DNA from: Candidatus Dojkabacteria bacterium
GTDB lineage: Bacteria; Patescibacteriota; Dojkabacteria; JAOAGR01
Assembly: GCA_026415655.1 (NCBI GenBank)
Contig: JAOAGR010000002.1
Span: forward strand, 64,094 to 128,093
DNA: 64,000 nt
Direction of reading: 5' to 3'
Each line of letters begins with the position of its first letter. The stretch's first letter is position 1. A model generated the notes under the pieces. That model was given only the letters and a program-made list of their open reading frames with translations. It did not search any database and was not told the DNA's origin. Made by a program: the position numbers and the translations under genes. Positions 1,399 through 64,000 of the stretch are shown one piece after another.

Positions 1399-2271
1399 TT
1401 ATAAAGATTCTAGTTTTTCGTTTCGAGGTTTATTTATACCTATAAGATTTGCAAATCTTTCTGTTGTTGAAATTCTTTTGTGACCGACGACTGTGGCTAT
1501 AAATGATATACTTGCGCCTCTTGCAAGATGGTGAGCGATAAATGTATTTCTAAGATCATTTACTGTAGCGTTTTTGATGTTTGCCTTCTTAAACAATCTC
1601 TCAAGATAAAATCTTACATTTCTTTTCATTACAGGATTACCAGATTTTGTGAGAAACAACGCGGGATTGTTATAATACTTTGGTCTTATTGTTAAATATT
1701 CTTTTAATGTATTACTGGCAACGTCATTTAATGGAACGATTCTTTCGGGAGTGGACTCATACTTCTTAATTCTAATTTGTATAGGTCTATCACCCTGATA
1801 GATAATATCATCAAGCTCTATTCGACATAATTCACCCACACGCATTCCTGTCTGCAAAAGAAGCTCAACCATGGTATAGATTCTAATATCACGTTTTGCA
1901 AGGTCCCTGAGTCTATTGTATTCTTCAGGTGTTAATACACGAGGCATTTCCGCATATGCTTTGGGGCTTTTTATCTTCATTTGTGGTATAGAATTGGCAT
2001 AGTTATTTTCAATGGCAAATTTGAAGAAATTTTTAACTGCATTTAATTTACGATAAATACTTTTTAATGTGTAACCTTTATTTGTGTAATGATCTACATA
2101 AGCTTGTACGTCCTCATTCGTAATATCATTGAGCTTTTTATTTCTTACATTTTCACAAAATTCCAAGAACTGTTCAATATCTTTTGTGTAAGCGATAATG
2201 GTGTTAATAGACTTATTTGCATCTCGTAGGCTTTTTTCGTAAAGATTAACTAATTCCTTTATTTTACTCAT
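1399..2271 (-). CDS. Site-specific tyrosine recombinase, XerC/XerD / phage-integrase family
   Basis: 290 aa. The N-terminal core-binding-like region reads 'INTIIAYTKDIEQFLEFC'. The C-terminal catalytic region reads 'HHLARGASISFIATVVGHKRISTTERF' and 'GMRVGELCRIELDDI', matching the R...H-x-x-R...Y pattern of tyrosine recombinases. It lies immediately downstream of the tRNA-Arg 3' end. Confidence 0.8.
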   Translation of the reverse strand: MSKIKELVNLYEKSLRDANKSINTIIAYTKDIEQFLEFCENVRNKKLNDITNEDVQAYVDHYTNKGYTLKSIYRKLNAVKNFFKFAIENNYANSIPQMKIKSPKAYAEMPRVLTPEEYNRLRDLAKRDIRIYTMVELLLQTGMRVGELCRIELDDIIYQGDRPIQIRIKKYESTPERIVPLNDVASNTLKEYLTIRPKYYNNPALFLTKSGNPVMKRNVRFYLERLFKKANIKNATVNDLRNTFIAHHLARGASISFIATVVGHKRISTTERFANLIGINKPRNEKLESL

Positions 2272-2404: not shown

Positions 2405-2481
2405 TGGCACGCCCGGAGAGATTCGAACTCCCGACCCCTTGTTCCGAAGACAAGTGCTCTAATCCGCTGAGCTACGGGCGC
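2405..2481 (-). tRNA. tRNA-Arg (anticodon TCG), CCA encoded
   Basis: Reverse complement is GCGCCCGTAGCTCAGCGGATTAGAGCACTTGTCTTCGGAACAAGGGGTCGGGAGTTCGAATCTCTCCGGGCGTGCCA. It forms a cloverleaf with a 7-bp acceptor stem (one GU pair), D-stem GCTC/GAGC, anticodon stem CTTGT/ACAAG, loop CTTCGGA (anticodon UCG) and T-loop TTCGAAT. Confidence 0.85.
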
Positions 2482-22637: not shown

Positions 22638-23867
22638 ATGAGAATAAAATCCGTCAAAGCTAGACAAATACTAAATTCAAAAGGTCATCCTACACTTGAA
22701 GTCGAGATATCGACTAATAGATATACAGCATATTCATCTGTACCTACTGTATCGTCTAAAAGCAAGTATGAATATGTGGATATATATGATCATGATGTGC
22801 TCAAATTTGATGGTGATACACTTTCAGTAGTTGTAAGGAATATAGAAACGGTTGTTGCAAATGAATTGAAAGGTAAAAATGTACTGGATCAGGAGAGTAT
22901 AGATAATTTACTTTTGGATATAGATGCTACATATGATAGAAGCAAACTGGGTATAAGTGCTATTACATCAATATCTCAATGTGTAGCGAAACTTGGTGCG
23001 TTAGAATCAGAGATGCCTCTTTATAAATATATACGCGTTTTGTACGAGTTTGGTGATGAAAGTGTGATAAAACTTCATTCTGAATATAATATGCCATTGC
23101 CTGTTATCACTATACTCAAAAGCGGTGCTCATAACAGACAAAATAGTCTGCCTTTTCAGGAGATAATGCTTCTACCACGTAGTGATTTTCGTTATAGTGA
23201 AATAATTGATGTCTATAATGCTCTTAGAAGTCTTGATCTTATTGATAAACCTAAGTCATTTCTTGAACTACTGGATAGCGTTAATAAATTTATCAAAAAG
23301 TCAAAGTATAGATTTTATTTTGGGATAGATTTTAGCGCTTCTAGATATAAAGACACTGATACTGGCGAGTACATCCTACCAAATTTTTACTCAAAAGGTG
23401 AATTTTATAGAGCTGATACAAAAAAGATGGTGAAGCTTTATAAAGATTTGTTAGGTCGTTATGAGGCATTAGTTTTTTTGGAGGATGTATTTGATGAAGA
23501 TGATTTTGCATCGTGGAAAGAGACCCATAATCTGATAGAGTATAATCCGTCAGCGGTACAAATAGTCTCAGATGACCTAACAGCAGGCAATATAGAAAGA
23601 CTAGAAAAGGTTGGTATATTAGAGGTTGCTAATAATATAGTGCTGAAGCCAACACAGGTAGGTACAGTAACCGAAATGATAAGATTTGCATCGCGAGTGA
23701 AAAGATATAATCTTGGTCTCACAGTATCTTATCGAAGTGGAGAAACAGAGGATACATTTATATCAGATTTAGCGGTAGGAGTAGGAGCGGAGTTTATAAG
23801 GGTAGGATCTTATATAGGAAGTGAGTGTAATAGTAAAATAAATAGATTGTTGCAGATGGATGTATAA
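22638..23867 (+). CDS. eno: Enolase-superfamily protein, a divergent enolase homolog
   Basis: 'IKSVKARQILNSKGHPTLEVEI' resembles (ARE)ILDSRGNPTVEV. 'IEDVFDEDDFASW', 'VSDDLTAGN', 'NNIVLKPTQVGTVTE' and 'SYRSGETEDTFISDLAVG' match the enolase core. Tyr replaces the catalytic His of SHRSGETED and Arg the Lys of 'IKTG'. Confidence 0.75.
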   Translation: MRIKSVKARQILNSKGHPTLEVEISTNRYTAYSSVPTVSSKSKYEYVDIYDHDVLKFDGDTLSVVVRNIETVVANELKGKNVLDQESIDNLLLDIDATYDRSKLGISAITSISQCVAKLGALESEMPLYKYIRVLYEFGDESVIKLHSEYNMPLPVITILKSGAHNRQNSLPFQEIMLLPRSDFRYSEIIDVYNALRSLDLIDKPKSFLELLDSVNKFIKKSKYRFYFGIDFSASRYKDTDTGEYILPNFYSKGEFYRADTKKMVKLYKDLLGRYEALVFLEDVFDEDDFASWKETHNLIEYNPSAVQIVSDDLTAGNIERLEKVGILEVANNIVLKPTQVGTVTEMIRFASRVKRYNLGLTVSYRSGETEDTFISDLAVGVGAEFIRVGSYIGSECNSKINRLLQMDV

Positions 23868-34079: not shown

Positions 34080-35297
34080 ATGGCAAAGATCGTAGATCTA
34101 AAGGCAAGGCAGATTCTTGGTACTAATGGAAATTATTGTATTGCTTGCGAAGTGATGCTTGATACTGGCGAAAAGAGTTTTATCCAAATGCCGGTCCTTC
34201 ATGACCATAACTTTATATCATGTTATGATGTTCCGAATTCTAAATCAAATATTATTAAAAGTGTATTAAAACAAGTTTTTTATATTAACAATAATATTAA
34301 GAAAATCTTGGTGGATCGCAAAATTGAAGATCTTGAAATTGTTGATGAGATCTTGTCACGTCTTGATAATGATCAGAGATGTTCTAACTTAGGTATAAAT
34401 ACTATTTCTGCAGTGTCCTGGTCATTATTTTTAGCAGCAGCCAAATCAAAGAATGTAGATTTGTTTAAATACATCTCCGAGTTCTGTGGTTTTGATAATA
34501 TTACTTATACTTTTCCATATGTTGTTTTTGATATATTTACGGATCCAGAAAAAAGAGTAATTCCATGGAGCGGAATTGGTATAGTGCCTGTTTTGAAAAC
34601 ACGTTTCAAGGATATGATTGATTTTGTTATCAGACTCTATGAACAGATTATAAAATCGAAAAAATACATATATCATATTAACTATGATGGGGGAATATTG
34701 CCAGATACTGACAATTTAGAAGGATTGTTAGAGGAGATTATTACAGCGGGAGAGAAGATCGGTTTTTACAATAAAAAAGATTTCTTTATAGTATTGGATG
34801 CTGGTTTAAATCGCAATCAAAACAATAAATATTTCATCAAATACAATTCGGATGATATTACAAGACTAGAATTAATTAAATATTATGAAAATTTAATAAA
34901 AAAATACTATTTAGGATCAATTATTAATCCGATTAATACTCATGACAAGGAAGGAATATCTACCATAATAGATGTATTGAGTAAAGATGTTCAGATAATA
35001 TTTGATTATCATTATTTTGACGATAAAGACCAGATATTTAGTTTTGATGATAATGTGACTGTCGGTATTCGTTTGGAAAATTTCTTAACAGCTACTTCCA
35101 TGCTAAATTTTTTATCAAAATTAAAAAATAAAAGTATTCCTTTTATTTTGAGGCATTCTTTGTTTGAGACGATCGATCATTTTTTGGCTGATATAGCTAT
35201 TGGCACAAGATCGATTCAGATAGATTTTGGTGGACTTTTTGGGGGACAAAATGTAGCAAAATACAACAGACTTTTAACTATAGAAGAACTGTCTTGA
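34080..35297 (+). CDS. Second enolase-superfamily paralog, strongly degenerate (probable pseudo-enzyme)
   Basis: 'IVDLKARQILGTNGNYCIACEV' aligns with the enolase N-terminus. 'LRHSLFETIDHFLADIAIG' aligns with SHRSGETEDTFIADLAVG but with key residues replaced. 'NVAKYNRLLTIEEL' resembles AKYNQLLRIEEEL. Confidence 0.55.
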   Translation: MAKIVDLKARQILGTNGNYCIACEVMLDTGEKSFIQMPVLHDHNFISCYDVPNSKSNIIKSVLKQVFYINNNIKKILVDRKIEDLEIVDEILSRLDNDQRCSNLGINTISAVSWSLFLAAAKSKNVDLFKYISEFCGFDNITYTFPYVVFDIFTDPEKRVIPWSGIGIVPVLKTRFKDMIDFVIRLYEQIIKSKKYIYHINYDGGILPDTDNLEGLLEEIITAGEKIGFYNKKDFFIVLDAGLNRNQNNKYFIKYNSDDITRLELIKYYENLIKKYYLGSIINPINTHDKEGISTIIDVLSKDVQIIFDYHYFDDKDQIFSFDDNVTVGIRLENFLTATSMLNFLSKLKNKSIPFILRHSLFETIDHFLADIAIGTRSIQIDFGGLFGGQNVAKYNRLLTIEELS

Positions 35298-35349: not shown

Positions 35350-37662
35350 GTGAGTCTTGCAAAAAAACAAATTGATAGTTTAAAAAAATACTTTCGTGCT
35401 GTAAATTATTTGTCTGCCATTCAAATATATCTTAAAAGTAATTTTTTACTTGAACGCAATCTAACTTTTGATGATATCAAACCAAGACTTTTGGGACATT
35501 GGGGAACATGTCCAGGTATAAATTTTCTTTATACTAATATTAACTTTTTTATAAAAAGAACTTCGCAAAAAACTGTTCTTCTGATAGGACCGGGGCACGG
35601 ACTCCCAGCTATACAAGCAAATGTTTATTTGGATGGTACTTTAGGGCAAAAATATCCGCAAGCGCAACACAATTTAGATGGTATTGAATTTATATCCAAA
35701 CTATTTTCCTGGCCTTATGGATTTCCAAGTCATGCAAGTCCCATGACTCCTGGAGTTTTATTAGAAGGCGGTGAACTTGGTTATGCACTAAGTATGGCTT
35801 TTGGGGTTACAAAATTTAAAAAGGATCTTCTTGTTATACCTTTTATAGGTGATGGAGAAGCGGAAACAGGACCAACAGCCACTTCTTGGTTTTTAAATAG
35901 ATTCTGGAATCCACTCGAGGATGGATTCATCATTCCGATAGTTCATGTAAATGGATATAAAATCTCAGGACCAACTATATATGGTCGCATGTCACTACTT
36001 GAATTAAAAGATCTTTTTTATGGATATGGCTACGATCCGATTTTTGTAGAATACAACGAATTTGAGGATATATTTGTAAAGATGCAGCAGGCACTCAGCA
36101 GATCTTATGAAATATCGCTCTCCATTCGATCTAAATATGCACAAGGATCTATATCTATTCCTAGGATTCCTGTGATCATCTTAAAAACTCCCAAAGGTTG
36201 GACAGGTATTAAATCTTATGAGAATGTTAAAATTGAAGATAATTATCTTTCTCATCAAGTTCCACTTTCAAATGCAAAATCAGATGAAAATCAATTGAGA
36301 GCTTTAGAAGATTGGTTAAGAAGTTATCATTTCGAGGAAGTATTTAATGAAGAATACGGATTTTCGAAGGATATTTTAGATATATTGCCCAGTGATGGAT
36401 TAAAAATTGCCGATGTTGTAGAAAATGAACTTCAACCTATGGATCTGATATCCGTTACCAATCCACAAGACCTGGCCAATTATCCAATTCATGCTCACCA
36501 AAGCTCGATGAAAGGCATTGGAAAGTATTTAAAAGAATTGATCAGATCAAATCCTAAAAGTTTTGCGGTATTTTCACCAGATGAAACTTACTCTAATAAA
36601 ATAAATGAGATTTTTCTCGTAACCAAAAGAGTAAATTTATGGCCGTTAAAATCTTCAGATGAAGATTTTGCTACTTCTGGAAATGTCTTTGAGATGTTGT
36701 CGGAGCACGCATTGTTTGGAATGTTAAAAGGATTTGTTATGTCAGGCAGATCTGGAGTATTTGTATCATATGAGGCTTTTGTGCAGATTATCACTAGCAT
36801 GGTAGATCAATACATTAAGTTCCTTAAACAATCAAGAAAGGTACATTGGAGGGCAAAACTAAATGCTTTAAACATAATTCTCACTTCGTCAGGATGGAGG
36901 CAAGACCATAATGGTTTTACACATCAAAATCCTGGATTTTTAAGTAATATTATTGAAAAACAAGATGTATCTGTACGAATATATTTTCCTGTAGATATAA
37001 ACACATCTGTTATTTTATTGGACAAGGTTTTGTATCAAAAGAATAGAATAAATGTCATATGTGTAGGAAAAACAGAGGAACCGGTATATTTTGATGCCCA
37101 TTCAGCAAGAACAGCGTTAGATGATGGCTACTGTATTTTTGATGATGAAATAAATACATCACCAGATATTGTGATTGTTGGTATTGGTGATTACATGGCA
37201 AAAGAGGCTTGGTACGCAAGTCAGATCTGTCGTTTTGAGTTAATCAAATTTCATATAAGACTTGTCTTTGTAATAGATTTTTACAAATTTCAAAAAATGC
37301 TAGAACTGAGTCCTAATAAGTTTAATTCTATTTTTAGAGCGAAATATTTGACAGTATGGAATTTTCACGGATATCCGCAGAGTCTAATGAAAATTTTATT
37401 TAATTCATCTGTATCATCCAATTCATATGTAAATGGATACATAGAGGTAGGATCAACGACGACACCTTTTGATATGCTCATTAGAAACAAAGTTTCGAGG
37501 TGGAATATATTTCTTCAGGTTTTGGATCGTTTATTAGATCTTGGAAAAATTTCCAAGAAACATTATAAGAAGTTGAAATTTAAATACGAAGAAAAATTTA
37601 GAAAACATAAGATATTTATTCAAAAATATGGATATGATCAAGATTGGATAAATATAGTATAA
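35350..37662 (+). CDS. xfp: Phosphoketolase (xylulose-5-P/fructose-6-P)
   Basis: 770 aa. 'LGHWGTCPGINFLYTN', 'GPGHGLPAIQANVYLDGTL' and 'EGGELGYALSMAFG' are phosphoketolase/ThDP signatures. Confidence 0.9.
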   Translation: MSLAKKQIDSLKKYFRAVNYLSAIQIYLKSNFLLERNLTFDDIKPRLLGHWGTCPGINFLYTNINFFIKRTSQKTVLLIGPGHGLPAIQANVYLDGTLGQKYPQAQHNLDGIEFISKLFSWPYGFPSHASPMTPGVLLEGGELGYALSMAFGVTKFKKDLLVIPFIGDGEAETGPTATSWFLNRFWNPLEDGFIIPIVHVNGYKISGPTIYGRMSLLELKDLFYGYGYDPIFVEYNEFEDIFVKMQQALSRSYEISLSIRSKYAQGSISIPRIPVIILKTPKGWTGIKSYENVKIEDNYLSHQVPLSNAKSDENQLRALEDWLRSYHFEEVFNEEYGFSKDILDILPSDGLKIADVVENELQPMDLISVTNPQDLANYPIHAHQSSMKGIGKYLKELIRSNPKSFAVFSPDETYSNKINEIFLVTKRVNLWPLKSSDEDFATSGNVFEMLSEHALFGMLKGFVMSGRSGVFVSYEAFVQIITSMVDQYIKFLKQSRKVHWRAKLNALNIILTSSGWRQDHNGFTHQNPGFLSNIIEKQDVSVRIYFPVDINTSVILLDKVLYQKNRINVICVGKTEEPVYFDAHSARTALDDGYCIFDDEINTSPDIVIVGIGDYMAKEAWYASQICRFELIKFHIRLVFVIDFYKFQKMLELSPNKFNSIFRAKYLTVWNFHGYPQSLMKILFNSSVSSNSYVNGYIEVGSTTTPFDMLIRNKVSRWNIFLQVLDRLLDLGKISKKHYKKLKFKYEEKFRKHKIFIQKYGYDQDWINIV

Positions 37663-48653: not shown

Positions 48654-51545
48654 TTATAACCTCTTGCTTAATTCTTTCTGTTCTAATTCCCTTAGAATTG
48701 TTTTTACTATATCACAATTATTCATACGACATGCTATCTGAGTGAAATTGTTATTAAATACATATTCTGCAACCTCATTCGGTTTTTCAAATCCACTGAT
48801 ATCTAAAATAGAATTATCTTTTAAACTATCTCGTTGTGATAGATATGTGACTAGATTCCGCATACCTTCAACAAATTTTGTTGATGCAGTAAGTTTTTCT
48901 ACACCGAGCATGTTCATCTTTAATCTGAATAGATCATAATAGCGTCCGTCAACAAGCATATCATCAACTACTTCATCTAGTCTAAAAACATTTATCATGC
49001 GTGATACATTTGCATAAATAGAAAAAGTTGATGATCTTTTGAGTCCGATTTTATTTAAAGATTGCTTCATCTGAACAATATCTTTTTTATTTCGATAATC
49101 GGGTAAAATAAGTGAAACATTCTTAAATTTTGATCTTATACTATGTATCTGTGACATGTAATTTACTAAAGCTTGACTTTCATAAGGTGGACATATTACT
49201 AATACTTTTTTTTCTAGACCTATTATTTGTAAATTCTGTAAAAGTAAATTTAGACCCACAGGCATATCTTCTGTAAAAGAAAAAATTACACCATCATAAT
49301 TGGCTAGAGAACTATCGATAACTTCATCTATCAAATGAACATATACTTTTGATATTGTGGGAATAAAATCCAAATATTTTTTATATTTTTTAGGAGTATT
49401 AATTTCATGTATATATGTCTCTTCTAAGTCAAAATTAAATTCTTTACTCTGAGTAGATATTGTATTAAGCTCATAATTGATAGAATCAATTGCTGTTGTT
49501 GCATGTTGTGGATTAACTTCGCTACTTGTTCTAACTAGCTTCTGCAAACTATTGGCCCATAGTTTCGTTTGATCAGATTCGCTGATTCCTTGTACTGCAT
49601 CTAAACTATTATTATTTCCAATATTTTGTGGATCTTTATCTTCAGTTACATAGCTTAATATACTTTCTAAGATACTTTGTTTATCTTCTTTATTTGTTTC
49701 TGCTATATAAATAGAGCTTTCAGAAATATCTGACTTGACATCCGCCTGAATGATATATTCTTTTTCAGGTTCTACTGGTATAGATAGCGATTCACCTTCT
49801 ATACCTTCATTTGTTTGTTTTTCTAATTGGATGGTTAAATCAATCTGGTTTTCTGTGTTCTCTTCTTCAAATGATGCCTGTGATGAAGCTGAGTTATCAA
49901 TAGCTACATTCAAACTTCCAGTATCTGATTCCTCGGTATTTGTTGATAAATTCATTTTTTGGTTATCATTTGCGTTCGGATCAGAAACAAATATACTGCC
50001 ATTGTTAGGATCAATTTTTATTGGTTCTCCTTCTTTTAATAGTCTATTTGCCAAAGGGGCACCGGTAATAACAGGAACTTTAAAGTGTTCATAAAGCCTT
50101 ATTGCTAGTATCTCTGATGGTTCTACTATTATAAAGCCTTTGACTTTTAGATCGGCTCTGATATCTTCAAAACCTTCAAGAATCAAAATACTATCTTCGC
50201 TTGGAGATTCATAATTAAATGTTGCTTTTCCGATAACTGTTGAGTTTCCTCTATAATATTGCCCTTCTATAAGAGGACGTGTTTTGAACACTATGCTGTC
50301 GTTCATATGATTATAGATTACATTTTTTTGGGATTCTTTTCTAGTATTGTTTTCGATTGCGAGATTTTGTGTTGCATTTTTCTCTACCAATGAAATATTT
50401 TCATCAGCATTGATGGCCATATTACTATCTTGTATGGCTGGTAAAACCATCTGAAGAGAAATCTCAGGTTGTTCCGCTGGAGATGTAAATTTATCTTCAT
50501 TTATTTGGGCTAGAAATTCGCTATGTTTTGAACTTAATGTGTGATCTTCTAGTGGTTTAGCTATGGGATTAATTTCGTTTTGGATATATGTAATAGCCAC
50601 ATCTTTTTCTGGTTCTTTTTCAATCTCATCTATTTGAAGATCATTAGGTTCCTTGGGTGTTTGATTACTGACTTCTATTTCTATTTTGTTTATTTCATCG
50701 TCAAAAATAATATCTTCCGTTTTCTTCTTCGGAATGTAATCTATTTGATTGATGTAGTATATCCACATCTTGCCATTATCAAGCATCCAATGTATTTCGT
50801 AATCATTTTGTAGCTCTTCTGATATGATTTTTATAGTTTTAGTTAATGATTTGATGTGTTTATCATCTATTTTCTGTTTTTTTTGCCATGCGACGGAGAC
50901 TTCTATTTGTTTATATGGTAAAGCATCATGCCCACGAATGTACATGAATTTTTGTTCCGTTATGTGCTTTTCAAGAATTTTCTCACTTTCTTTATCTACA
51001 ATATAAGTATCATATTCGATATTTAAATTATTCACAGGTATTCCATAAGCTGCCTCTATAAGTATTGACTCATCAGAGTTATTCAATACATTCTTAGAAA
51101 AAGCATATCCAAATGAATCACAATTATTTGATTTCAATATAAGAATGTTAATTGTTACATCCGAACAACGTTTCAAAACATCTTTTTGCAGGTTATTAAT
51201 AATATCTTCTATTGAGAAGATGATCTTTTGCACACCTTTTACTTGATATACGCATAGATCTTTTATGATTTGACTATTGTCATTAGATTTTACAAAAACG
51301 AAGATGTTGACATATGATTCAGTTAATCCAGATATTGATTCGTATTGATCAATAACTTCTTTGAGAATCGATTCTTTAACTTTTGAATCAACCTCAGTGG
51401 ATAGTTTTGTTATTCCGCTATGGCTGATTATAAATCCATTTGGTATAGGTAGTAGTTCTTTATACAAATCTGATAACAAAACTACCAAGTCAGTAAAATC
51501 TTCATCTGCTTTGATTTTTTCTTGTAGACTGTATACGTGCTTCAT
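48654..51545 (-). CDS. PEP-synthase / pyruvate-phosphate-dikinase / rifampicin-phosphotransferase-like protein: N-terminal PPDK_N ATP-grasp domain, His-less swivel domain, long acidic disordered linker
   Basis: 963 aa. 'LPIPNGFIISHSGITKL' resembles PpsA 'VSVPNGFATTADAF'. 'EIHWMLDNGKMWIYYINQIDYIP' resembles 'DIEWAKDG..GKLFIVQARP'. 'PSEILAIRLYEHFKVPVITGAPLA' sits in the place of the phospho-His motif GGRTSHAAIIARELGIPAVVG, with no His. Residues about 520-700 are D/E/S/N-rich. Confidence 0.55.
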   Translation of the reverse strand: MKHVYSLQEKIKADEDFTDLVVLLSDLYKELLPIPNGFIISHSGITKLSTEVDSKVKESILKEVIDQYESISGLTESYVNIFVFVKSNDNSQIIKDLCVYQVKGVQKIIFSIEDIINNLQKDVLKRCSDVTINILILKSNNCDSFGYAFSKNVLNNSDESILIEAAYGIPVNNLNIEYDTYIVDKESEKILEKHITEQKFMYIRGHDALPYKQIEVSVAWQKKQKIDDKHIKSLTKTIKIISEELQNDYEIHWMLDNGKMWIYYINQIDYIPKKKTEDIIFDDEINKIEIEVSNQTPKEPNDLQIDEIEKEPEKDVAITYIQNEINPIAKPLEDHTLSSKHSEFLAQINEDKFTSPAEQPEISLQMVLPAIQDSNMAINADENISLVEKNATQNLAIENNTRKESQKNVIYNHMNDSIVFKTRPLIEGQYYRGNSTVIGKATFNYESPSEDSILILEGFEDIRADLKVKGFIIVEPSEILAIRLYEHFKVPVITGAPLANRLLKEGEPIKIDPNNGSIFVSDPNANDNQKMNLSTNTEESDTGSLNVAIDNSASSQASFEEENTENQIDLTIQLEKQTNEGIEGESLSIPVEPEKEYIIQADVKSDISESSIYIAETNKEDKQSILESILSYVTEDKDPQNIGNNNSLDAVQGISESDQTKLWANSLQKLVRTSSEVNPQHATTAIDSINYELNTISTQSKEFNFDLEETYIHEINTPKKYKKYLDFIPTISKVYVHLIDEVIDSSLANYDGVIFSFTEDMPVGLNLLLQNLQIIGLEKKVLVICPPYESQALVNYMSQIHSIRSKFKNVSLILPDYRNKKDIVQMKQSLNKIGLKRSSTFSIYANVSRMINVFRLDEVVDDMLVDGRYYDLFRLKMNMLGVEKLTASTKFVEGMRNLVTYLSQRDSLKDNSILDISGFEKPNEVAEYVFNNNFTQIACRMNNCDIVKTILRELEQKELSKRL

Positions 51546-57232: not shown

Positions 57233-57702
57233 ATATAGTTAAGGAAATAATAAGCAGATTTTTACAATCATTATTCGAAGATGATAAGTATCAATATGAG
57301 GTAGAACTCATTTCACAGAATGAAATAAAAATATATATTGGTGGTGAGTATTCAGCTTATTTGATAGGCAAAAAAGGTAATACTTTATTAGCATTACAAC
57401 ATATAATTAGGCAGATCTATATACAAAATACTGGTGATTTTGCAGAGAATGTAAAATTAATTATTGATGTGGATAATTACAAGAGAAAAAGATTAGAAAA
57501 ACTGTATCAAATTGTAGAAAAATATGTAAATGAAAATTCAGATAAAGAAAGGATTGCTTTACCATCAATGAAAGCATCTGACAGAAAAATTATTCATAAC
57601 TATATTGCTCAGAAATATCCTCAGTATACTACTAAAAGTGAAGGAGAAGAACCACGAAGAAGGGTTGTTTTATTCTTGAACAATGCACAAAAGAATCAAT
57701 AA
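57214..57702 (+). CDS. jag: Jag/KhpB-like RNA-binding protein (KH + R3H)
   Basis: 'YLIGKKGNTLLALQHI' (KH GxxG) and 'MKASDRKIIHNYI...GEEPRRRVVL' (R3H). The yidC-jag pairing is conserved. Confidence 0.75.
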   Translation: MAEEKLNIVKEIISRFLQSLFEDDKYQYEVELISQNEIKIYIGGEYSAYLIGKKGNTLLALQHIIRQIYIQNTGDFAENVKLIIDVDNYKRKRLEKLYQIVEKYVNENSDKERIALPSMKASDRKIIHNYIAQKYPQYTTKSEGEEPRRRVVLFLNNAQKNQ

Positions 57703-59194
57703 ACTAACACAAAAATTAATTAATAGTCCAAGATTTTACCGTTTCTTGGAGATGCTTCCAGGTATACTATCTCTTGGTTTTATTTGTCTTCCTTTGGTAT
57801 TGGCCCTTTTCAATCCCATGTGGGCTGCTTATTTTATCCTTTTGTACATGGTTTATTGGACATATAACAGTATAAAGTTTGTTGTATATGCTTTTATAGC
57901 GCATAAAAAGGTTTTAACGGTAAAATCCATTGACTGGCTGGAAAAGTTAAAAAATGATTATCCAGGTGAATGGAACAAATTTTATTATGTAGCACTCATA
58001 CCTTTTGCTTCCGAATCGATAAATGTATTGCGACCTACAGTACAATCTATAGTTGATAATAACTGGCCAAAAGAACGTAAAATATTATGTTTATCTTCAG
58101 AAAAAGCCATTCCAAAAGGAAAACAGGTTGCCGAAGAGCTTAGAGATATTTATAAAGATGAATTTGCATATATCTTTATTACAGAGCACGAACTAAAAGA
58201 AGGAGAGCTGAAGGGAAAATCAGCCAATCAAAACCATGCCGCTAGATTTTTGTATGATGAACTAACGAAATTAAGTTTTGAGCCAAAATATGTTTTATTA
58301 ACAAGCAATGATGCAGATGTACGAAATGACAAAGAGTATATTCCTTATTTAATATATAAGTTTTTATCTGAAGGCGATGATCGTTATTTTCGCATTTTCC
58401 AGCCTATACCAACAGATTATTCTGATTTCTGGGATGCCAAATTTTTTTCGCGTTTGATTGTTTCTATAGGTGCAAATTGGAGACTAGCTCTGCAACAGAG
58501 AGATAACTATCGTTGTACGGTTTATTCATTTTATTCGATGAGTTTATATACATTAAAAGAAATTGGATTTTGGGATGTGGATCTTATTCCGGAGGACGAG
58601 CGTACAATGTTTAAAGCTTTATTTCGATTTGGAGAAAAATTTAAAGTTGTGCCTTTATTTATTAATACGTATGGTAATCCTGTTCAATCGGATTCATTCT
58701 GGAAGGCAGCAAAAGAACAGTACATACAGGTCCGCCGTTGGGCTTGGGGCGCATCGGAGTTCGCCTATTCTTTTACTCATGCATTAAAAAATACACATGT
58801 CTCGTGGAGAGTAAAACTCTTACCCATATTCAATCAATTACGAACAGTAGTAGAATGGTCTTCATCATCTATATTACCTTTGTTAGGAGGATACATACCA
58901 GGACTTTTCAGTGAGGAATTTAGACTTACTACACTGAATTATTATCTGGGTTCAACTATTGTTTTACTCATACAGTTAGCTTCATTATTGGTTTTGATGA
59001 TTGTTTATATAGAGTATCAGTTAATACCGAAAAACGATAAAACCAAAGGTATGACTAGGTTGTTAAAGTATGTCCATTGGATACTTATGCCTTATGTTGG
59101 TTTGATTTTTAGCTCGATACCCGCTTTAGATGCGCAAATAAGACTTCTTTTGAACAGACGTATTGTTTATGTCGAAAGCAAAAAAGAAAAGTAA
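57683..59194 (+). CDS. Membrane-embedded family-2 glycosyltransferase (processive, QxxRW type)
   Basis: 'LLTSNDADVRND' (DxD-like) and 'EQYIQVRRWAWGASEF' (QxRRW), with N- and C-terminal TM helices. 503 aa. Confidence 0.5.
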   Translation: MHKRINKLTQKLINSPRFYRFLEMLPGILSLGFICLPLVLALFNPMWAAYFILLYMVYWTYNSIKFVVYAFIAHKKVLTVKSIDWLEKLKNDYPGEWNKFYYVALIPFASESINVLRPTVQSIVDNNWPKERKILCLSSEKAIPKGKQVAEELRDIYKDEFAYIFITEHELKEGELKGKSANQNHAARFLYDELTKLSFEPKYVLLTSNDADVRNDKEYIPYLIYKFLSEGDDRYFRIFQPIPTDYSDFWDAKFFSRLIVSIGANWRLALQQRDNYRCTVYSFYSMSLYTLKEIGFWDVDLIPEDERTMFKALFRFGEKFKVVPLFINTYGNPVQSDSFWKAAKEQYIQVRRWAWGASEFAYSFTHALKNTHVSWRVKLLPIFNQLRTVVEWSSSSILPLLGGYIPGLFSEEFRLTTLNYYLGSTIVLLIQLASLLVLMIVYIEYQLIPKNDKTKGMTRLLKYVHWILMPYVGLIFSSIPALDAQIRLLLNRRIVYVESKKEK

Positions 59195-60345: not shown

Positions 60346-60576
60346 TTACATAGGCAATATTGTTTGATTATCATCTAAGTTTTGAGATCCGCATCTTGGG
60401 CATTTTGTATGTTTTGTACTTCCTTCATACACATAGCCGCAATCCTTACATATGATATGGTATATCACGATATTAGTCGTTTGATTTAAGTTGTTTGGTG
60501 TTCTTGAAGTATCTATTACGCCCGCCAATATATCGGGGTCTAATTGATAATCTTGACTGCTGCTTTGGTTTGGCAT
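60346..60576 (-). CDS. Small zinc-ribbon protein, hypothetical
   Basis: 76 aa. 'CKDCGYVYEGSTKHTKCPRCG' has a CxxC...CxxC pattern. Confidence 0.35.
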   Translation of the reverse strand: MPNQSSSQDYQLDPDILAGVIDTSRTPNNLNQTTNIVIYHIICKDCGYVYEGSTKHTKCPRCGSQNLDDNQTILPM

Positions 60577-60631: not shown

Positions 60632-60925
60632 ATGGCATCTACAAAAAATCAAAAAAGTGATATTTTAAGTATGACTGACGAAGAGATAATTTCTACATTT
60701 GCTGTGTCAGAAAAAGATACAGGTTCTCCTGAAGTTCAGGTAGCTTTATTTACTAAAAGAATACAAAATTTGATTGAGCACTTGAAAAAAAATAAAAAGG
60801 ATCTTCATTCAAGGCGAGGGCTTCTGCAGATGATTGGAAAAAGAAGAAGAATGCTTGAGTATCTTAAAAGAAAAGATGAGGCAAGGTACAAGAAAATAAT
60901 TGATGCTGTTGGACTAAAAAGATAG
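60632..60925 (+). CDS. rpsO: 30S ribosomal protein S15
   Basis: '[52 protein letters not shown]' is a typical S15. Immediately upstream of pnp. Confidence 0.9.
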
Positions 60926-60927
60926 CT

Positions 60928-63039
60928 ATGCAAAAAAATAAATTTTCTTTCGATTTTTACGATAAAGAATATGTTATAGAATTTGGACATATTGGTTTTA
61001 ATTCGGATGTATGTTTCTTATTGACCTGTAGAGGGACTTCGGTGCTTTTAAATCTGGTAATTGGAAAAGAAGACACTGCTTTAGATTTCTTTCCTTTAAC
61101 AGTCGAGTATATTGAGAAGCTTTATGCATCTGGACAAATAGCATCTTCACCTTATATCAAAAATGAAGGTAAGCCCAATGATCATGAAATATTACATGCG
61201 CGTTTAATAGATCATGCCATACGTTCTTTATTTCCATCTGATCTTAGAAGAGAGGTACAAATCGTGTGTCAAGTTGTTTCTTATGATGGAGTTGTAGATC
61301 CTGTTTTGGTATCAATAGTTGGCGTTAGTTTTGCAATCACATACTCCGGCTTACCTTTTTTAGGACCCTACGGAACAACAAAGATTGGTTATAAAAACGG
61401 TGACTTCTTGATTAATGCGGATCTAAGTGAATTTGTTGATTCCGAAATGGAAATGTTTGTGTCTAGTGTAGAGAAGGGAATAGTCTCTATCGAGGCAGAT
61501 ATACATAATTTGTCCGATGAAATAGTAAAAGAAGCCATTAAAATAGCGCATGAAAGGAATTTTTATTTAATTGAGAAACAAAAAGAATTTGTAAATTTAT
61601 TTTCACCCAAAACTTTAGATATAGTAAAAGAGAAAGATGAGAGTCTTTTGCAACCATATTATGATGAAATTTATACAACTTTTAAAAATGATATAGAAGC
61701 TGCAATTTATGTAACAGACAAAAAAAATAGAGAGAATAATATCAGGGAACTGTATGAAAAGATAAAAAGTCATTTTACTGAAAACTTTAATGACCAACAA
61801 ATTGATGAGAATGTTATAAAGCAGGCTTTCGAAAAAGCTCAAAAAAAGATTGTCAGATCAAATATAATTGATTATGAAAAAAGACCTGATGGAAGAAAAT
61901 TGGACGAAATAAGATCAATATCGATCCAAGTGGGTGTTCTTCCTTCGGTCCATGGTTCATCGTTATTTACTAGGGGTGAGACTCAATCTCTGACTGTTGT
62001 GACTCTTGGTACGGATCAGGATGCGTTAATCTATCAAAATTTGGAAGGTGATCTCGCTAAAAGATATTTTCATCACTATAACATGCCAGGTTATGCTAAT
62101 GGAGAGATCGATAGAAAGATAGGATTTCAAAATAGGCGTGCAATAGGTCATGGTGCTATCGGTGAAAAATCGTTAAAAAACGTGTTACCAAAATACGAAG
62201 AGTTTCCTTATACCATCAGGGTAGTTTCAGAAATAGTATCATCAAATGGTTCTACTTCTATGGCAGCTACGTGTGGATCCACACTTGCTTTAATGGATGC
62301 AGGTGTTCCTATCAGGGATGTTATTGGTGGTATTGGTGTTGGTCTTGTTTATGAAAGTGAAGAAAAATATAAAATCTTAACTGATATTATAAATATTGAG
62401 GATTTTTATGGTGATATGGATTTTAAGATAACAGGTTCAGAACGTGGTATTACGGCCATTCAGTTAGACAACAAGCTATCAGGTATCCCCATAGACATTA
62501 TATTAGAAGCGATTGATGCTTCTGCTAGAGGTAGAAAATTTGTTATTGAACAGATGAAAAAATACATAAGCTCACCACGTTCTAAGGTTGCGGATAATGC
62601 ACCTAAAGTAAAGATTATAAAAATAAACCCAGAAAAAATCGCTGAGTTGATTGGTCCTGGAGGAAAAAATATAAAAGATATCATTGAAAAAACAAATACA
62701 GAAATAAAAATAAATCCTGATGGAACTGTAATTATTTATGGTAGGGAAGAGAACGGATTGAATAATGCAGTACAACAGATTAATAATATAGGATTTATTC
62801 TTGATGAAAATACAGAGTATCAAGCTGAGGTGATAAGAGTTGAAGAGTATGGTGCAATTGTACAAATTTTAAATACCAACACATTTGGTCTTATACATAT
62901 ATCTACGTTTAATAATTCATCAGACCACAAATTTGTCAAAATTGATCTAAATAAAGTATTTAAAGTTGGTGATCTAGTTAAGGTAAAATACATAGGTAAT
63001 GATGTTAAGGGAAGACCCAAATTTAGACTTGCACAATAA
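60928..63039 (+). CDS. pnp: Polyribonucleotide nucleotidyltransferase (PNPase)
   Basis: 703 aa. 'RPDGRKLDEIRSISIQVGVLPSVHGSSLFTRGETQSL' (RNase PH domain), plus KH and S1 ('YQAEVIRVEEYGAIVQI') at the C-terminus. Confidence 0.9.
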   Translation: MQKNKFSFDFYDKEYVIEFGHIGFNSDVCFLLTCRGTSVLLNLVIGKEDTALDFFPLTVEYIEKLYASGQIASSPYIKNEGKPNDHEILHARLIDHAIRSLFPSDLRREVQIVCQVVSYDGVVDPVLVSIVGVSFAITYSGLPFLGPYGTTKIGYKNGDFLINADLSEFVDSEMEMFVSSVEKGIVSIEADIHNLSDEIVKEAIKIAHERNFYLIEKQKEFVNLFSPKTLDIVKEKDESLLQPYYDEIYTTFKNDIEAAIYVTDKKNRENNIRELYEKIKSHFTENFNDQQIDENVIKQAFEKAQKKIVRSNIIDYEKRPDGRKLDEIRSISIQVGVLPSVHGSSLFTRGETQSLTVVTLGTDQDALIYQNLEGDLAKRYFHHYNMPGYANGEIDRKIGFQNRRAIGHGAIGEKSLKNVLPKYEEFPYTIRVVSEIVSSNGSTSMAATCGSTLALMDAGVPIRDVIGGIGVGLVYESEEKYKILTDIINIEDFYGDMDFKITGSERGITAIQLDNKLSGIPIDIILEAIDASARGRKFVIEQMKKYISSPRSKVADNAPKVKIIKINPEKIAELIGPGGKNIKDIIEKTNTEIKINPDGTVIIYGREENGLNNAVQQINNIGFILDENTEYQAEVIRVEEYGAIVQILNTNTFGLIHISTFNNSSDHKFVKIDLNKVFKVGDLVKVKYIGNDVKGRPKFRLAQ

Positions 63040-63041
63040 TT

Positions 63042-63482
63042 ATGATAAAATTATTACATATGAGACTAAGCTCGGGGTTGAACAGATTTTTACTTTTTTT
63101 ATTAATTAATTTCTTATCATTTTTAATAATTATTCCTGATGTATTGGCACAAAGTAATAATACAACCAGTCAATGCCCGGCTAACGCTATTTACAATCCT
63201 TTAGATCCTAATTGTGATAGAAACCTTAATCTAGGTATAATATTTAATGTAATACTTAATGTAGTTCCATTCATAGTAGTACTTATAGCAGTCGGATTTT
63301 TTGCTTGGGGGGCAATAAAAATTATTATTGCTGGTGAAGACAGCAACGCAAGAGAAAAAGGTATAGAAACCATGAGAAATGCGATAATAGGGTTGGTAGC
63401 GTTCTTTCTCATTGGGATGATTCTTTGGATTGTATCATTAGTGACCGGTTCTGATATAGCATCGTTTATTTTGGGTAATTAA
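63042..63482 (+). CDS. Small secreted two-TM protein, possible TrbC/VirB2-like pilin
   Basis: 146 aa. Long signal peptide ending '..DVLAQ'. Cys pair (QCPANAIYNPLDPNCD). Two hydrophobic helices separated by 'AGEDSNAREKGIETMRN'. Architecture as in T4SS pilins. Confidence 0.4.
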   Translation: MIKLLHMRLSSGLNRFLLFLLINFLSFLIIIPDVLAQSNNTTSQCPANAIYNPLDPNCDRNLNLGIIFNVILNVVPFIVVLIAVGFFAWGAIKIIIAGEDSNAREKGIETMRNAIIGLVAFFLIGMILWIVSLVTGSDIASFILGN

Positions 63483-63485
63483 ATT

Positions 63486-64000
63486 ATGTGGATGTCAAAA
63501 AATAAAATAAAAATAATTAATTTTATTTTATTTATACTGATTTTTATATTATTCTTTGTTTATAGTTCTAATATCTTTCCTGTTTTTGCCAATACGACAC
63601 CTACTAATACATGTGATATTAACTGTCTAAGGCAGAAGCTTGGTCTTGTCGATCAACAAGGCAATAATACTGTACAAGATACATTTGGACTTCTTGAGCC
63701 AAGAGATCCAAATGATTTTATTATACTAGTTTTTCAGATACTTATTTATGCTGCTTTGATAATAGCTGTTGGTAGCATAGTTTTTGCGGGGTATAAGATT
63801 GCGGGGGCAGGTGATAATGCTGAAGAAAGAAAAAAAGGTTTTGATAGATTAATTTGGTCTATCGTCGGATTTGTTTTGGCAATTTTAGCACTTACAATTA
63901 TAAATCTGATTTCATCTTTTTTTGGCTACCAATTTGATGGTAATATTACTGAGCAACTTTGTAAGAATTTACAAAATTATCCAAATCCCGATCAGAAACT
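63486..64000 (+). CDS. Paralog of the preceding small secreted two-TM protein (3' end beyond the window)
   Basis: ATG at 63486. Signal peptide, Cys pair (NTCDINC). 'IAVGSIVFAGYKIAGAGDNAEERKKGFDRLIWSIVGFVLAILAL' parallels 'IAVGFFAWGAIKIIIAGEDSNAREKGIETMRNAIIGLVAFFLI' of the upstream gene. No stop before the window end. Confidence 0.4.
   Translation, partial: MWMSKNKIKIINFILFILIFILFFVYSSNIFPVFANTTPTNTCDINCLRQKLGLVDQQGNNTVQDTFGLLEPRDPNDFIILVFQILIYAALIIAVGSIVFAGYKIAGAGDNAEERKKGFDRLIWSIVGFVLAILALTIINLISSFFGYQFDGNITEQLCKNLQNYPNPDQK

What the first reader, a model, noticed from the sequence alone, without database searches (positions are those of the whole stretch)
63042..64000. Tandem paralogous small secreted two-helix proteins with Cys pairs, possibly T4SS (TrbC/VirB2-like) pilins, at the window edge
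Two adjacent genes encode proteins with a long signal peptide, a short Cys-x(n)-Cys segment, and two hydrophobic helices separated by a conserved charged loop (AGEDSNAREKG in one, AGAGDNAEERKKG in the other). That topology is characteristic of conjugative/T4SS pilins, and tandem duplication is typical of pilin loci. If correct, the downstream sequence beyond the window should hold VirB4/VirB6/VirD4-like genes, i.e. a conjugation or DNA-uptake apparatus. For an episymbiont this could instead be a host-attachment apparatus.
Basis: inference. Interest (0 to 1): 0.5.

Follow-up and report, generated by a model that had tools for sequence, protein, structure and literature searches.

The report
Patescibacterial T4SS-type pilin gene triad

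Summary
ORF1 (63060-63482, 140 aa) and ORF2 (63486->64000, 204 aa in full) each have a Sec signal peptide, an extracellular Cys pair and a two-helix hairpin with a short charged loop. Both score above Pfam's cut-off for PF18895 T4SS_pilin. Identical proteins in NCBI are already named "pilin [Candidatus Dojkabacteria bacterium]".

Identical contigs extend the locus and show a third paralogue. After it come tRNA-Ile, NUDIX, YebC, photolyase and MreB. No VirB4, VirB6 or VirD4 was found in 10 kb downstream; none of the 19 largest ORFs of the 64-kb window is one, but smaller ORFs were not scanned.

Tandem arrays of divergent VirB2-like pilins in Patescibacteria, often away from virB4, were described in 2025. 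So this is a new member of a known kind.

My additions:
- The block rpsO-pnp-pilins is conserved in five Dojkabacteria-like lineages, down to 46% PNPase identity, although the flanks differ.
- The three paralogues keep their order and their own Cys motifs.
- They are under purifying selection (dN/dS about 0.1).
- In the most distant lineage a DUF87 (VirB4/HerA-type) ATPase lies about 7 kb further on.

Homology to classical TrbC/VirB2 is only sub-threshold. T4SS machinery in this genome was not tested directly.

The parts
60632..60925 (+). rpsO (ribosomal protein S15), first gene of the conserved block rpsO-pnp-pilins
   Evidence: PF00312 in the precomputed annotation of the identical contig. 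It precedes pnp in all five lineages.
60928..63039 (+). pnp (polynucleotide phosphorylase, 703 aa), immediately upstream of pilin 1
   Evidence: RNase_PH x2, PNPase, KH and S1 domains. It is 100% identical to an NCBI 'Candidatus Dojkabacteria' PNPase. The gap from the pnp stop to the pilin-1 start is 13-40 nt in five lineages.
63060..63482 (+). Pilin paralogue P1 (140 aa; the ORF opens at 63042, but 63060 is the conserved start)
   Evidence: PF18895 33.4 bits against a cut-off of 26.6. The start codon argument is. dN/dS is 0.106. AF2 gives a helical hairpin.
63060..63149 (+). P1 Sec-type signal peptide (residues 1-30, predicted cleavage VLA|QS)
   Evidence: Read directly from the sequence: an n-region with R2 and R9, a hydrophobic core, and small residues at -3 and -1. 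AF2 helix 5-30. No SignalP run was available.
63174..63215 (+). P1 extracellular Cys loop CPANAIYNPLDPNC (Cys39...Cys52)
   Evidence: The motif CPxNxxxNPxDPNC is conserved in the first pilin of L007, L097 and L098.
63225..63329 (+). P1 helix 1 (transmembrane, residues 56-90)
   Evidence: Hydropathy. AF2 helix 58-91 with pLDDT around 90.
63330..63362 (+). P1 charged loop AGEDSNAREKG (predicted cytoplasmic in the membrane form)
   Evidence: Sequence. This is the break between the two AF2 helices.
63363..63449 (+). P1 helix 2 (transmembrane, residues 102-130)
   Evidence: Hydropathy. AF2 helix 95-129.
63486..64000 (+). Pilin paralogue P2, first 171 of 204 codons (cut by the window end)
   Evidence: PF18895 43.8 bits; PF04956 20.8 bits, below its cut-off. 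Full length read from the identical contigs L001 and L003. dN/dS 0.095.
63486..63590 (+). P2 signal peptide (residues 1-35, predicted cleavage VFA|NT)
   Evidence: Sequence features.
63612..63626 (+). P2 N-terminal Cys pair CDINC (Cys43, Cys47)
   Evidence: Conserved in the L007 orthologue.
63708..63800 (+). P2 helix 1 (transmembrane, residues 75-105), preceded by the conserved PRDPND motif
   Evidence: Hydropathy. The PR[DN]PN motif is conserved in the second pilin of L097 and L098.
63801..63839 (+). P2 charged loop AGAGDNAEERKKG
   Evidence: Sequence. DNAEERKKG is shared with P3.
63840..63926 (+). P2 helix 2 (transmembrane, residues 119-147)
   Evidence: Hydropathy.
63960..64000 (+). Start of the P2 extracellular C-terminal tail, with Cys159; its partner Cys176 lies beyond the window
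   Evidence: A C-x16-C tail is conserved in the second pilin of L007, L097 and L098.

Best explanation
The two genes are the first two of three conserved paralogous VirB2-like 'T4SS pilins' (Pfam PF18895) of a Candidatus Dojkabacteria (Patescibacteria/CPR) bacterium.

Shown here:
- Each protein has a Sec-type signal peptide and a hairpin of two long hydrophobic helices joined by a short charged loop.
- All conserved Cys pairs lie in segments predicted to be outside the cell.
- The three paralogues (P1, P2, P3) keep their order and their own motifs across deep Dojkabacteria lineages.
- They are under purifying selection.
- They sit 13-40 nt behind pnp, in the block rpsO-pnp-P1-P2-P3, followed by tRNA-Ile in four of the five lineages.

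Inferred:
- The precursors are exported by Sec and cut by signal peptidase I. They rest in the membrane with both ends out and the loop in.
- A VirB4-driven, monoderm-type T4SS encoded elsewhere in the genome extracts them and assembles them into a surface pilus or conduit at the contact with the host cell. This follows what is proposed for the essential pilin array of Southlakia epibionticum.
- Because the three paralogues are fixed and not interchangeable, the structure is probably heteromeric, for example a tail-less core subunit (P1) plus two subunits with disulfide-stabilised external tails (P2, P3). It is probably not a set of antigenic variants.
- The position directly behind rpsO-pnp most simply gives the strong, constitutive expression that a structural subunit needs.
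For: Family membership:
- PF18895 is above the gathering score for ORF1 and ORF2 (33.4 and 43.8 against 26.6 bits). P3 carries PF18895 in the precomputed annotation.
- NCBI names the identical proteins 'pilin'.
- A profile of the family finds 99,483 cluster representatives at E<=1e-3.

Fold:
- The AF2 model of the mature domain has pLDDT 84.
- ORF2 gives a sub-threshold TrbC/VirB2 hit, E 4.5e-4, over the same two helices.

Link to T4SS in relatives:
- L099 has rpsO-pnp, four PF18895 genes, SpoIID and DUF5657, and a 780-aa DUF8128+DUF87 ATPase about 7 kb after the last pilin.
- L010 has five pilins next to large polytopic proteins that carry TrbL_3 in the precomputed annotation.

Literature:
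- VirB2-like pilins occur in 1,948 Patescibacteria assemblies that have VirB4, and lie near virB4 in only 1,135 of them. There are 441 arrays of 2-11 genes with a mean identity of 25% (PMC12102498).
- The two GTDB-class Dojkabacteria genomes visible in Table S1 are marked VirB4 'Yes'.
- The pilin array is essential in S. epibionticum (PMC10633639; PMC12857230).

Conservation:
- The triad occupies the same position in L007, L097 and L098, with reciprocal best hits P1/a, P2/b, P3/c.
- dN/dS is 0.095-0.134.
Against: - No VirB4, VirB6, VirD4 or other T4SS gene was found in the 10 kb on each side of the window or among the window's 19 largest ORFs. ORFs of 100-350 aa were not scanned.
- tblastn with proteins that flank pilin arrays in relatives finds nothing in the window or its flanks.
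- T4SS machinery in this genome could not be tested.
- PF04956 is below its cut-off, and hhalign against MPF_T VirB2/TrbC is not significant.
- There is no sequence match to any solved structure, and Foldseek finds nothing.
- The TrbL_3 label in L010 was not reproduced by my own hmmscan.
- The DUF87 ATPase of L099 is known only from the precomputed annotation, and only 59 residues of it are in hand.
- No T4SS pilus of a Patescibacterium has been purified or solved.
- Fused 'poly-pilins' in the family show that some members may act as membrane-embedded assemblies rather than extruded fibres.
Confidence: 0.62

Rival explanations
1. The proteins belong to PF18895 but act without a T4SS. They would form a membrane-embedded or envelope-associated oligomer, such as a pore, a scaffold or an anchor for surface domains, assembled by Sec and YidC alone.
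For: - The triad lies in a housekeeping block (rpsO, pnp, tRNA-Ile), with no T4SS gene found in about 84 kb.
- About 40% of Patescibacteria assemblies with VirB2-like pilins have them away from virB4 (PMC12102498).
- The family is very large (99,483 representatives).
- It includes single polypeptides with 2-17 fused pilin domains behind one signal peptide.
- It also includes proteins where a large extracellular domain is fused to one C-terminal pilin domain (L095 753 aa, L099 351 aa). Both kinds look more like membrane anchors or rings than fibre subunits.
Against: - In relatives, arrays sit beside T4SS-type genes (L099 DUF87 ATPase; L010).
- In S. epibionticum the array lies inside the essential T4SS cluster.
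- The best structural match is a conjugation pilin.
- Minor pilins with large head domains are compatible with a pilus.
Confidence: 0.22
2. The pilins stay welded to pnp because the two work together. The pilus or conduit would import host RNA, and PNPase would phosphorolyse it to NDPs, so the block would be an RNA-feeding operon.
For: - The pnp-pilin junction (13-40 nt) is kept in five lineages, down to 46% PNPase identity, while the genes on both sides change.
- A 2026 preprint reports uptake of host RNA, tube-like structures 'that may be T4SS pili', and PNPase as the key catabolic enzyme in a cultivated Patescibacterium (10.64898/2026.06.21.733656).
Against: - The conserved block also holds rpsO and tRNA-Ile(UAU), which are typical highly expressed genes. 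An expression hitch-hike explains the linkage just as well.
- Part of the wider neighbourhood is also retained (ClpB, the class-V aminotransferase), so inherited synteny is a live alternative.
- None of 80 other PNPase loci at 36-42% identity, 58 of them with at least 1.5 kb downstream, has a pilin nearby.
- Only five lineages were sampled.
- There is no transcript evidence.
Confidence: 0.1
3. They are generic small membrane proteins, holins, bacteriocin-type peptides, or type IV pilus (T4P) pilins.
For: They are small and hydrophobic with two helices.
Against: - PF18895 is significant.
- There is no phage context; the neighbours are housekeeping genes.
- There is a cleavable Sec signal peptide, not the class III G|F-x-x-x-E leader of T4P pilins.
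- The genes are conserved as a fixed trio under purifying selection across deep lineages.
Confidence: 0.03

Closest known systems
VirB2-like pilin arrays of Patescibacteria T4SS (Quinonero-Coronel et al. 2025, PMC12102498; essential six-gene array of Southlakia epibionticum ML1, Wang et al. 2023, PMC10633639)
   Same: - Same Pfam family (PF18895).
- Tandem genes with low identity between paralogues: 23-37% here, against a reported mean of 25% and maximum of 54%.
- Sec signal peptide plus a two-helix hairpin.
- The host organism is a Patescibacterium.
- Arrays are often not next to virB4.
   Different: - Here the array is a fixed trio with conserved order and paralogue-specific Cys motifs, directly behind rpsO-pnp.
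- It is under purifying selection, so it does not look like a variable set adapting to hosts.
- It is not inside a T4SS cluster and not at the replication origin (no GC-skew switch in the window).
- The pnp linkage is not mentioned in that paper ('pnp' and 'polynucleotide' occur 0 times).
Classical conjugative pilins TrbC/VirB2 (PF04956; A. tumefaciens VirB2, RP4 TrbC, R388 TrwL) and F-type TraA
   Same: - Leader peptide, then two hydrophobic helices with a short polar loop, with both termini outside.
- ORF2 gives a TrbC hit at E 4.5e-4.
   Different: - Below the Pfam cut-off, and hhalign is not significant.
- The cell is a monoderm, so there is no outer-membrane core complex.
- There are extra Cys-bonded N- or C-terminal extensions.
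- There is no adjacent virB1 or virB3, as found in MPF_T operons.
- Cyclisation or C-terminal processing is unknown.
Archaeal conjugation/DNA-import pilins (Aeropyrum pernix 8dfu, Pyrobaculum calidifontis 8dft)
   Different: Sequence identity is 5-7%, with no detectable sequence homology. The machinery is different (Ced/Ted-type).
Mbov_0395 / ICE_MMCAP2_0565 pilin-like conjugal transfer protein of Mycoplasma ICEs (NCBIfam NF045849)
   Same: The best NCBIfam match for all three paralogues, aligned over the two-helix core (37.2, 31.8 and 20.6 bits). It is also from a monoderm.
   Different: All scores are below the family cut-off of 40 bits. The genes here are chromosomal and in a housekeeping context, with no ICE.

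Membership tests
Pfam PF18895 T4SS_pilin | HMM score at or above the gathering cut-off (26.6 bits) | tested here: met
   ORF1 33.4 bits (E 4.9e-8) and ORF2 43.8 bits (E 2.8e-11). P3 carries PF18895 in the precomputed annotation.
Pfam PF18895 T4SS_pilin | Signal peptide followed by a hairpin of two hydrophobic helices with a short polar loop | tested here: met
   Hydropathy and motif positions. AF2 helices 58-91 and 95-129, pLDDT 84 for the mature domain. Signal peptide cleavage is inferred from the -3/-1 rule only.
Pfam PF18895 T4SS_pilin | T4SS machinery (VirB4 and others) encoded in the same genome | not tested
   None was found among the window's 19 largest ORFs or in 10 kb on either side; smaller ORFs were not scanned. 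Literature: most Patescibacteria genomes have VirB4, including the two Dojkabacteria-class genomes visible in Table S1.
Patescibacteria VirB2-like pilin array (PMC12102498) | Two to eleven PF18895/PF04956 genes in tandem, with low identity between paralogues | tested here: met
   Three consecutive genes with pairwise identity of 23-37%.
Patescibacteria VirB2-like pilin array (PMC12102498) | Located within 20 CDS of virB4 (true for about 58% of assemblies) | tested here: not met
   No VirB4-like ATPase within about 10 CDS downstream. Upstream, none of the ORFs large enough to be VirB4 has a T4SS domain. In the distant relative L099 a DUF87 ATPase lies 8 genes after the last pilin.
Pfam PF04956 TrbC/VirB2 pilin | HMM score at or above the gathering cut-off (27.9 bits) | tested here: not met
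   ORF2 scores 20.8 bits (E 4.5e-4). ORF1 gives no hit.
Pfam PF04956 TrbC/VirB2 pilin | Profile-profile similarity to bona fide MPF_T VirB2/TrbC proteins | tested here: not met
   hhalign of A2 (16 sequences) against A3 (6 annotated VirB2/TrbC from conjugative plasmids): probability 1.9%, 30 columns aligned. Both alignments are shallow.
Pfam PF04956 TrbC/VirB2 pilin | VirB2/TraA-type pilin fold | tested here: inconclusive
Pfam PF04956 TrbC/VirB2 pilin | Polymerisation into an extracellular pilus with bound lipid; terminal processing or cyclisation | not testable with these tools
   This needs biochemistry or cryo-EM.
NCBIfam NF045849 Mbov_0395 pilin-like conjugal transfer protein | Score at or above the cut-off of 40 bits | tested here: not met
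   ORF2 37.2, P3 31.8 and ORF1 20.6 bits.
Type IV pilus (T4P) pilins / pseudopilins | Class III signal peptide (G|F/M-x-x-x-E) and a single N-terminal hydrophobic helix | tested here: not met
   The leaders end VLA|Q, VFA|N and ANA|Q, and two further hydrophobic helices follow.

The most novel reading that the evidence does not exclude
In Dojkabacteria the pilin trio has stayed fused to the rpsO-pnp transcription unit for a very long time, down to 46% PNPase identity, because the T4SS-type pilus is the import conduit of an RNA-feeding lifestyle and PNPase is its first intracellular processing step. If so, this locus would be the first genomic link between the two halves of the host-RNA parasitism model proposed in 2026. 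A second, independent novel reading is that the three fixed paralogues build an obligately heteromeric T4SS pilus, which is unknown among conjugative pili.
Probability: 0.12. Interest if true: 0.7.

Novelty: new member of a known kind. Interest (0 to 1): 0.3.

Why it matters
Patescibacteria make up a large share of bacterial diversity and live attached to host cells. Their T4SS and its pilin array are essential in the one species tested genetically, yet what the structure is and what it carries are unknown. This locus adds little at the family level, because the proteins are already auto-annotated as pilins. It does offer three things:
- A clean, minimal example of three conserved, non-redundant paralogues that could guide heteromer modelling or expression for structure work.
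- Evidence that at least one class keeps the pilins under purifying selection, rather than diversifying them for host range as has been suggested.
- A conserved physical link to pnp that bears on the recent proposal that these bacteria feed on host RNA.

Tried and rejected
- The sequence search of the PDB with the family profile gave only chance hits at E>=0.5.
- Foldseek of the full-length model against the PDB gave nothing at E<=0.001.
- tblastn of P2 and of P0014 against 72,556 plasmids gave no match even at E 1-10. There is therefore no bridge to annotated conjugative plasmids.
- hhalign against VirB2/TrbC was not significant.
- The genome-contig scan with the paralogue alignment returned only the one related locus already known.
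- The metagenome-contig scan with PNPase returned only 36-42% relatives, none with a pilin. It does not sample close relatives.
- Two contig look-ups failed, probably because my ORF starts did not match the called genes.
- The promoter scan was not above shuffles (32 against 32.2). No + strand terminator lies between pnp and P3. The intergenic folds were unremarkable (z -1.1 and -1.4), apart from revealing a tRNA.
- The precomputed TrbL_3 label on the large proteins next to the L010 array was not reproduced, even at E<=10. I do not rely on it.
- GC skew shows no origin in the window, so the 'near oriC' explanation from the literature does not apply visibly.
- I considered that the multi-domain 'poly-pilins' were read-through artefacts of tandem genes. 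I rejected this because the repeats lack internal signal peptides.
- Hypervariable or antigenic-variation behaviour is rejected. Orthologue identity is 77-84%, against 73-97% for the neighbours, and dN/dS is about 0.1.
Full report
**What is in the sequence**

Two + strand ORFs fill the last 960 bases of the window.

ORF1 is open from 63042. Its real start is the ATG at 63060. NCBI's identical protein has 140 aa. In a genome whose proteins are about 82-86% identical, the upstream ATG is followed by an in-frame TAA.

ORF2 starts at 63486 and runs off the window after 171 codons.

Contigs found through the exact ORF1 protein match the last 10,959 bases of the window with no mismatch. They show that ORF2 is 204 aa. 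They also show a third paralogue, P3 (174 aa), 119 nt further on.

All three proteins have the same plan:
- a Sec-type signal peptide ending in a small-x-small site (VLA|Q, VFA|N, ANA|Q)
- a polar segment
- a long hydrophobic helix
- a short charged loop (AGEDSNAREKG, AGAGDNAEERKKG, TKAKDNAEERKKG)
- a second hydrophobic helix

P1 has a Cys pair before the hairpin. P2 has one before and one after. P3 has one after. With the signal peptide removed, both ends of the hairpin face outward. Every Cys pair therefore lies where disulfides can form, which is internally consistent.

**Family**

Both window ORFs score above Pfam's curated cut-off for PF18895 T4SS_pilin (33.4 and 43.8 against 26.6 bits). 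P3 carries the same family in the precomputed annotation. NCBI's pipeline already names the identical proteins 'pilin [Candidatus Dojkabacteria bacterium]'.

The organism assignment has two supports. The PNPase next door is 100% identical to a Dojkabacteria MAG protein, and the next named relatives, at 53-55%, are also Dojkabacteria. One related assembly is titled Saccharibacteria by its submitter. Either way this is a Patescibacterium (formerly WS6). The window is 31% G+C.

The tie to classical VirB2/TrbC is weak:
- PF04956 reaches only 20.8 bits for ORF2, against a cut-off of 27.9, and nothing for ORF1.
- NCBIfam's Mycoplasma-ICE pilin-like family is the best NCBIfam hit but stays below its cut-off.
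- A profile-profile comparison with six annotated VirB2/TrbC proteins from MPF_T conjugative plasmids is not significant.
- A profile search of all PDB sequences finds nothing.

**Structure**

AlphaFold2 with a 16-sequence alignment gives a signal-peptide helix, a disordered Cys segment and a long antiparallel helical hairpin (pLDDT 71 overall). The mature domain alone reaches pLDDT 84.

Foldseek against the PDB is uninformative.

**Neighbourhood, and the failed prediction**

The 10 kb beyond the window hold P3, tRNA-Ile(UAU), a NUDIX hydrolase, YebC, a photolyase, MreB, L1, L11, an HhH-GPD glycosylase and AspRS.

Upstream lie pnp, rpsO, a MurG-like gene, Jag, YidC, GatB and ClpB.

The 19 largest ORFs of the window are all ordinary or unknown, and none has a T4SS domain. 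About 35 ORFs of 100-350 aa were never scanned against Pfam, so small T4SS parts such as VirB3/PrgI would have been missed. The 10 kb to the left of the window also has none.

My own HMM of the family finds no further pilin in the window. Proteins that flank pilin arrays in relatives have no homologue in the window or its flanks.

The prediction fails.

**Why the T4SS reading still stands**

The phenomenon is published. Quinonero-Coronel et al. (2025) searched 3,035 Patescibacteria genomes with PF18895 and PF04956. They found:
- VirB2-like pilins in 1,948 assemblies that also have VirB4
- the pilin gene near virB4 in only 1,135 of these
- 441 arrays of 2-11 tandem pilin genes, with a mean identity of 25%

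In Southlakia epibionticum the pilin array lies in the T4SS cluster and is essential for growth on the host.

The trio here, at 23-37% identity, fits that description.

Relatives I sampled give direct support:
- One contig has five pilins next to large polytopic proteins.
- Another has seven pilin-like genes.
- A more distant PNPase relative (L099) has four PF18895 genes, then SpoIID, DUF5657 and, about 7 kb after the last pilin, a 780-aa DUF8128+DUF87 ATPase of the VirB4/HerA type. That ATPase label is precomputed, and the gene is cut after 59 residues.

I could not test whether this genome has VirB4. The two Dojkabacteria-class genomes visible in the paper's Table S1 are marked 'Yes'.

**What I add**

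Using the PNPase as an anchor, I looked at progressively more distant relatives. Five lineages were examined:
- the window itself
- L007, with PNPase 82% identical
- L097, 55% identical
- L098, 56% identical
- L099, 46% identical

In all five, rpsO-pnp is followed after only 13-40 nt by the pilin genes.

In the first four, the trio has the same order by reciprocal best hits. Each paralogue also keeps its own motifs:
- P1: CPxNxxxNPxDPNC
- P2: PR[DN]PN before helix 1, and a C-x16-C tail
- P3: a PCT...C tail

In those four a tRNA-Ile(UAU) follows P3. L099 has four pilins and no tRNA-Ile after them.

The genes on either side of the block differ. The window and L007 have MurG upstream and NUDIX-YebC downstream. 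L097 and L098 have MurJ upstream and ThrRS downstream. L099 has unrelated genes upstream and T4SS-type genes downstream. Some wider synteny does remain, for example ClpB and a class-V aminotransferase.

None of 80 PNPase loci at 36-42% identity has a pilin nearby.

Between the window and L007 the pilins are 77-84% identical, against 73-97% for 16 neighbouring genes. Their dN/dS is 0.095-0.134. dS is near saturation, so these ratios are rough.

These are therefore constrained, non-redundant genes. They do not look like a fast-evolving variable set.

**Mechanism I commit to**

Shown: family membership, topology, conserved trio, tight linkage to pnp, and purifying selection.

Inferred:
- Sec export and cleavage by signal peptidase I
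- a membrane pool of hairpins with the loop inside
- extraction and polymerisation by a VirB4-type T4SS encoded elsewhere, giving a surface pilus or conduit at the host interface
- three distinct subunits rather than one

The simplest reason for the position behind rpsO-pnp, and before a tRNA, is strong constitutive expression. There is no room for a terminator in the 20-nt gap, and none was predicted between pnp and P3. The promoter scan is uninformative in this AT-rich DNA.

I put about 0.6 on this model. I put about 0.2 on a T4SS-independent membrane or envelope assembly.

**The more novel reading**

A June 2026 preprint reports that a cultivated Patescibacterium takes up host RNA and shows tubes 'that may be T4SS pili'. 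It treats PNPase as the key enzyme that turns RNA into NDPs.

A long-conserved pnp-pilin junction would fit a functional coupling. With five lineages, retained regional synteny and other highly expressed genes in the block, this stays a hypothesis (about 0.1).

**Verdict**

- The feature is a new member of a known kind. The identical proteins are already auto-annotated.
- Interest is modest. It rests on the conserved trio and the pnp linkage.

Noticed in passing
P0020, P0023, P0024, P0037, P0103 (hits of the family profile; not in the window): The top-scoring family members are single polypeptides with one signal peptide followed by 2-17 tandem two-helix pilin domains, for example 552 aa with 6 domains and 1,775 aa with 17. 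The repeats have no internal signal peptides, so they are true fusions and not read-through of tandem genes. 'Fused' and 'fusion' in the 2025 survey refer only to VirB3-VirB4. How such 'poly-pilins' could be polymerised is unclear.
   Followed up: partly
L095 6813-9071 (753+ aa); L099 12539-13594 (351 aa); L095 2735-3907 (391 aa); L011 8824-9558 (245 aa): Some array members carry a large N-terminal extracellular domain in front of a single C-terminal pilin domain. Examples are a glycosyl-hydrolase core in L095 and a 260-aa Cys-rich domain in L099. This is what a minor or tip pilin with an enzymatic or adhesive head would look like.
   Followed up: partly
L001 11746-11822 (264 nt beyond the window end); also L007 11485-11561, L097 13993-14069, L098 13956-14032: A tRNA-Ile with anticodon UAU follows the third pilin in four lineages. 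A spurious 223-aa GTG ORF overlaps it in the mechanical ORF list.
   Followed up: yes
L010 340-9413 (- strand): The precomputed annotation gives PF19590 TrbL_3 for three of the four large polytopic proteins beside a five-pilin array (unmarked, weak and faint; the fourth has none). hmmscan of three of them against the Pfam copy provided finds no TrbL_3; two were scanned up to E<=10 and one to E<=0.01. Either the model changed between releases or the stored hits used other settings.
   Followed up: partly
L007/L009 (CAZDBO010000001.1) versus NCBI MCX8034842-43: Taxonomic labels conflict. The near-identical MAG is 'Candidatus Dojkabacteria bacterium', while the 82-86% related assembly is titled 'uncultured Candidatus Saccharibacteria bacterium'. 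The PNPase relatives favour Dojkabacteria.
   Followed up: partly
window 60346-60576 (- strand): A 76-aa zinc-ribbon-like protein (two CxxC pairs; faint RUBY_RBDX hit) is transcribed away from rpsO. A gene of similar size sits in the same place in L007, L097 and L098.
   Followed up: no
window 22638-23867, 34080-35297 and 35350-37662: There are two enolase paralogues, the second much more divergent (Enolase_C 71 against 131 bits). The second is followed by a phosphoketolase (XFP), which is notable in such a reduced genome.
   Followed up: no
window 1399-2271 (- strand) and 2408-2481 (- strand); also 134-1297: A tyrosine recombinase (Phage_integrase plus SAM-like N-terminal domain) lies next to a tRNA gene. 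It is flanked by three consecutive proteins with no Pfam hit (387 aa in the window, then 534 and 335 aa further left). It could be XerC/D, or the edge of an integrated element.
   Followed up: no
window 48654-51545 (- strand); 57683-59194 (+ strand): Two large proteins are poorly annotated. The 963-aa protein matches only a 135-residue stretch of the PPDK ATP-binding domain. The 503-aa protein between jag and the murG-like gene has only a weak glycosyltransferase-2 hit, yet it is 91% conserved against L007.
   Followed up: no
L099 21955-22133: The first 59 residues of the DUF8128+DUF87 ATPase contain one hydrophobic helix and give a weak, non-significant TrbD/VirB3 hit (E 0.038). A VirB3-VirB4 fusion would contradict the 2025 survey, which found none. 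The gene is cut by the locus end.
   Followed up: no
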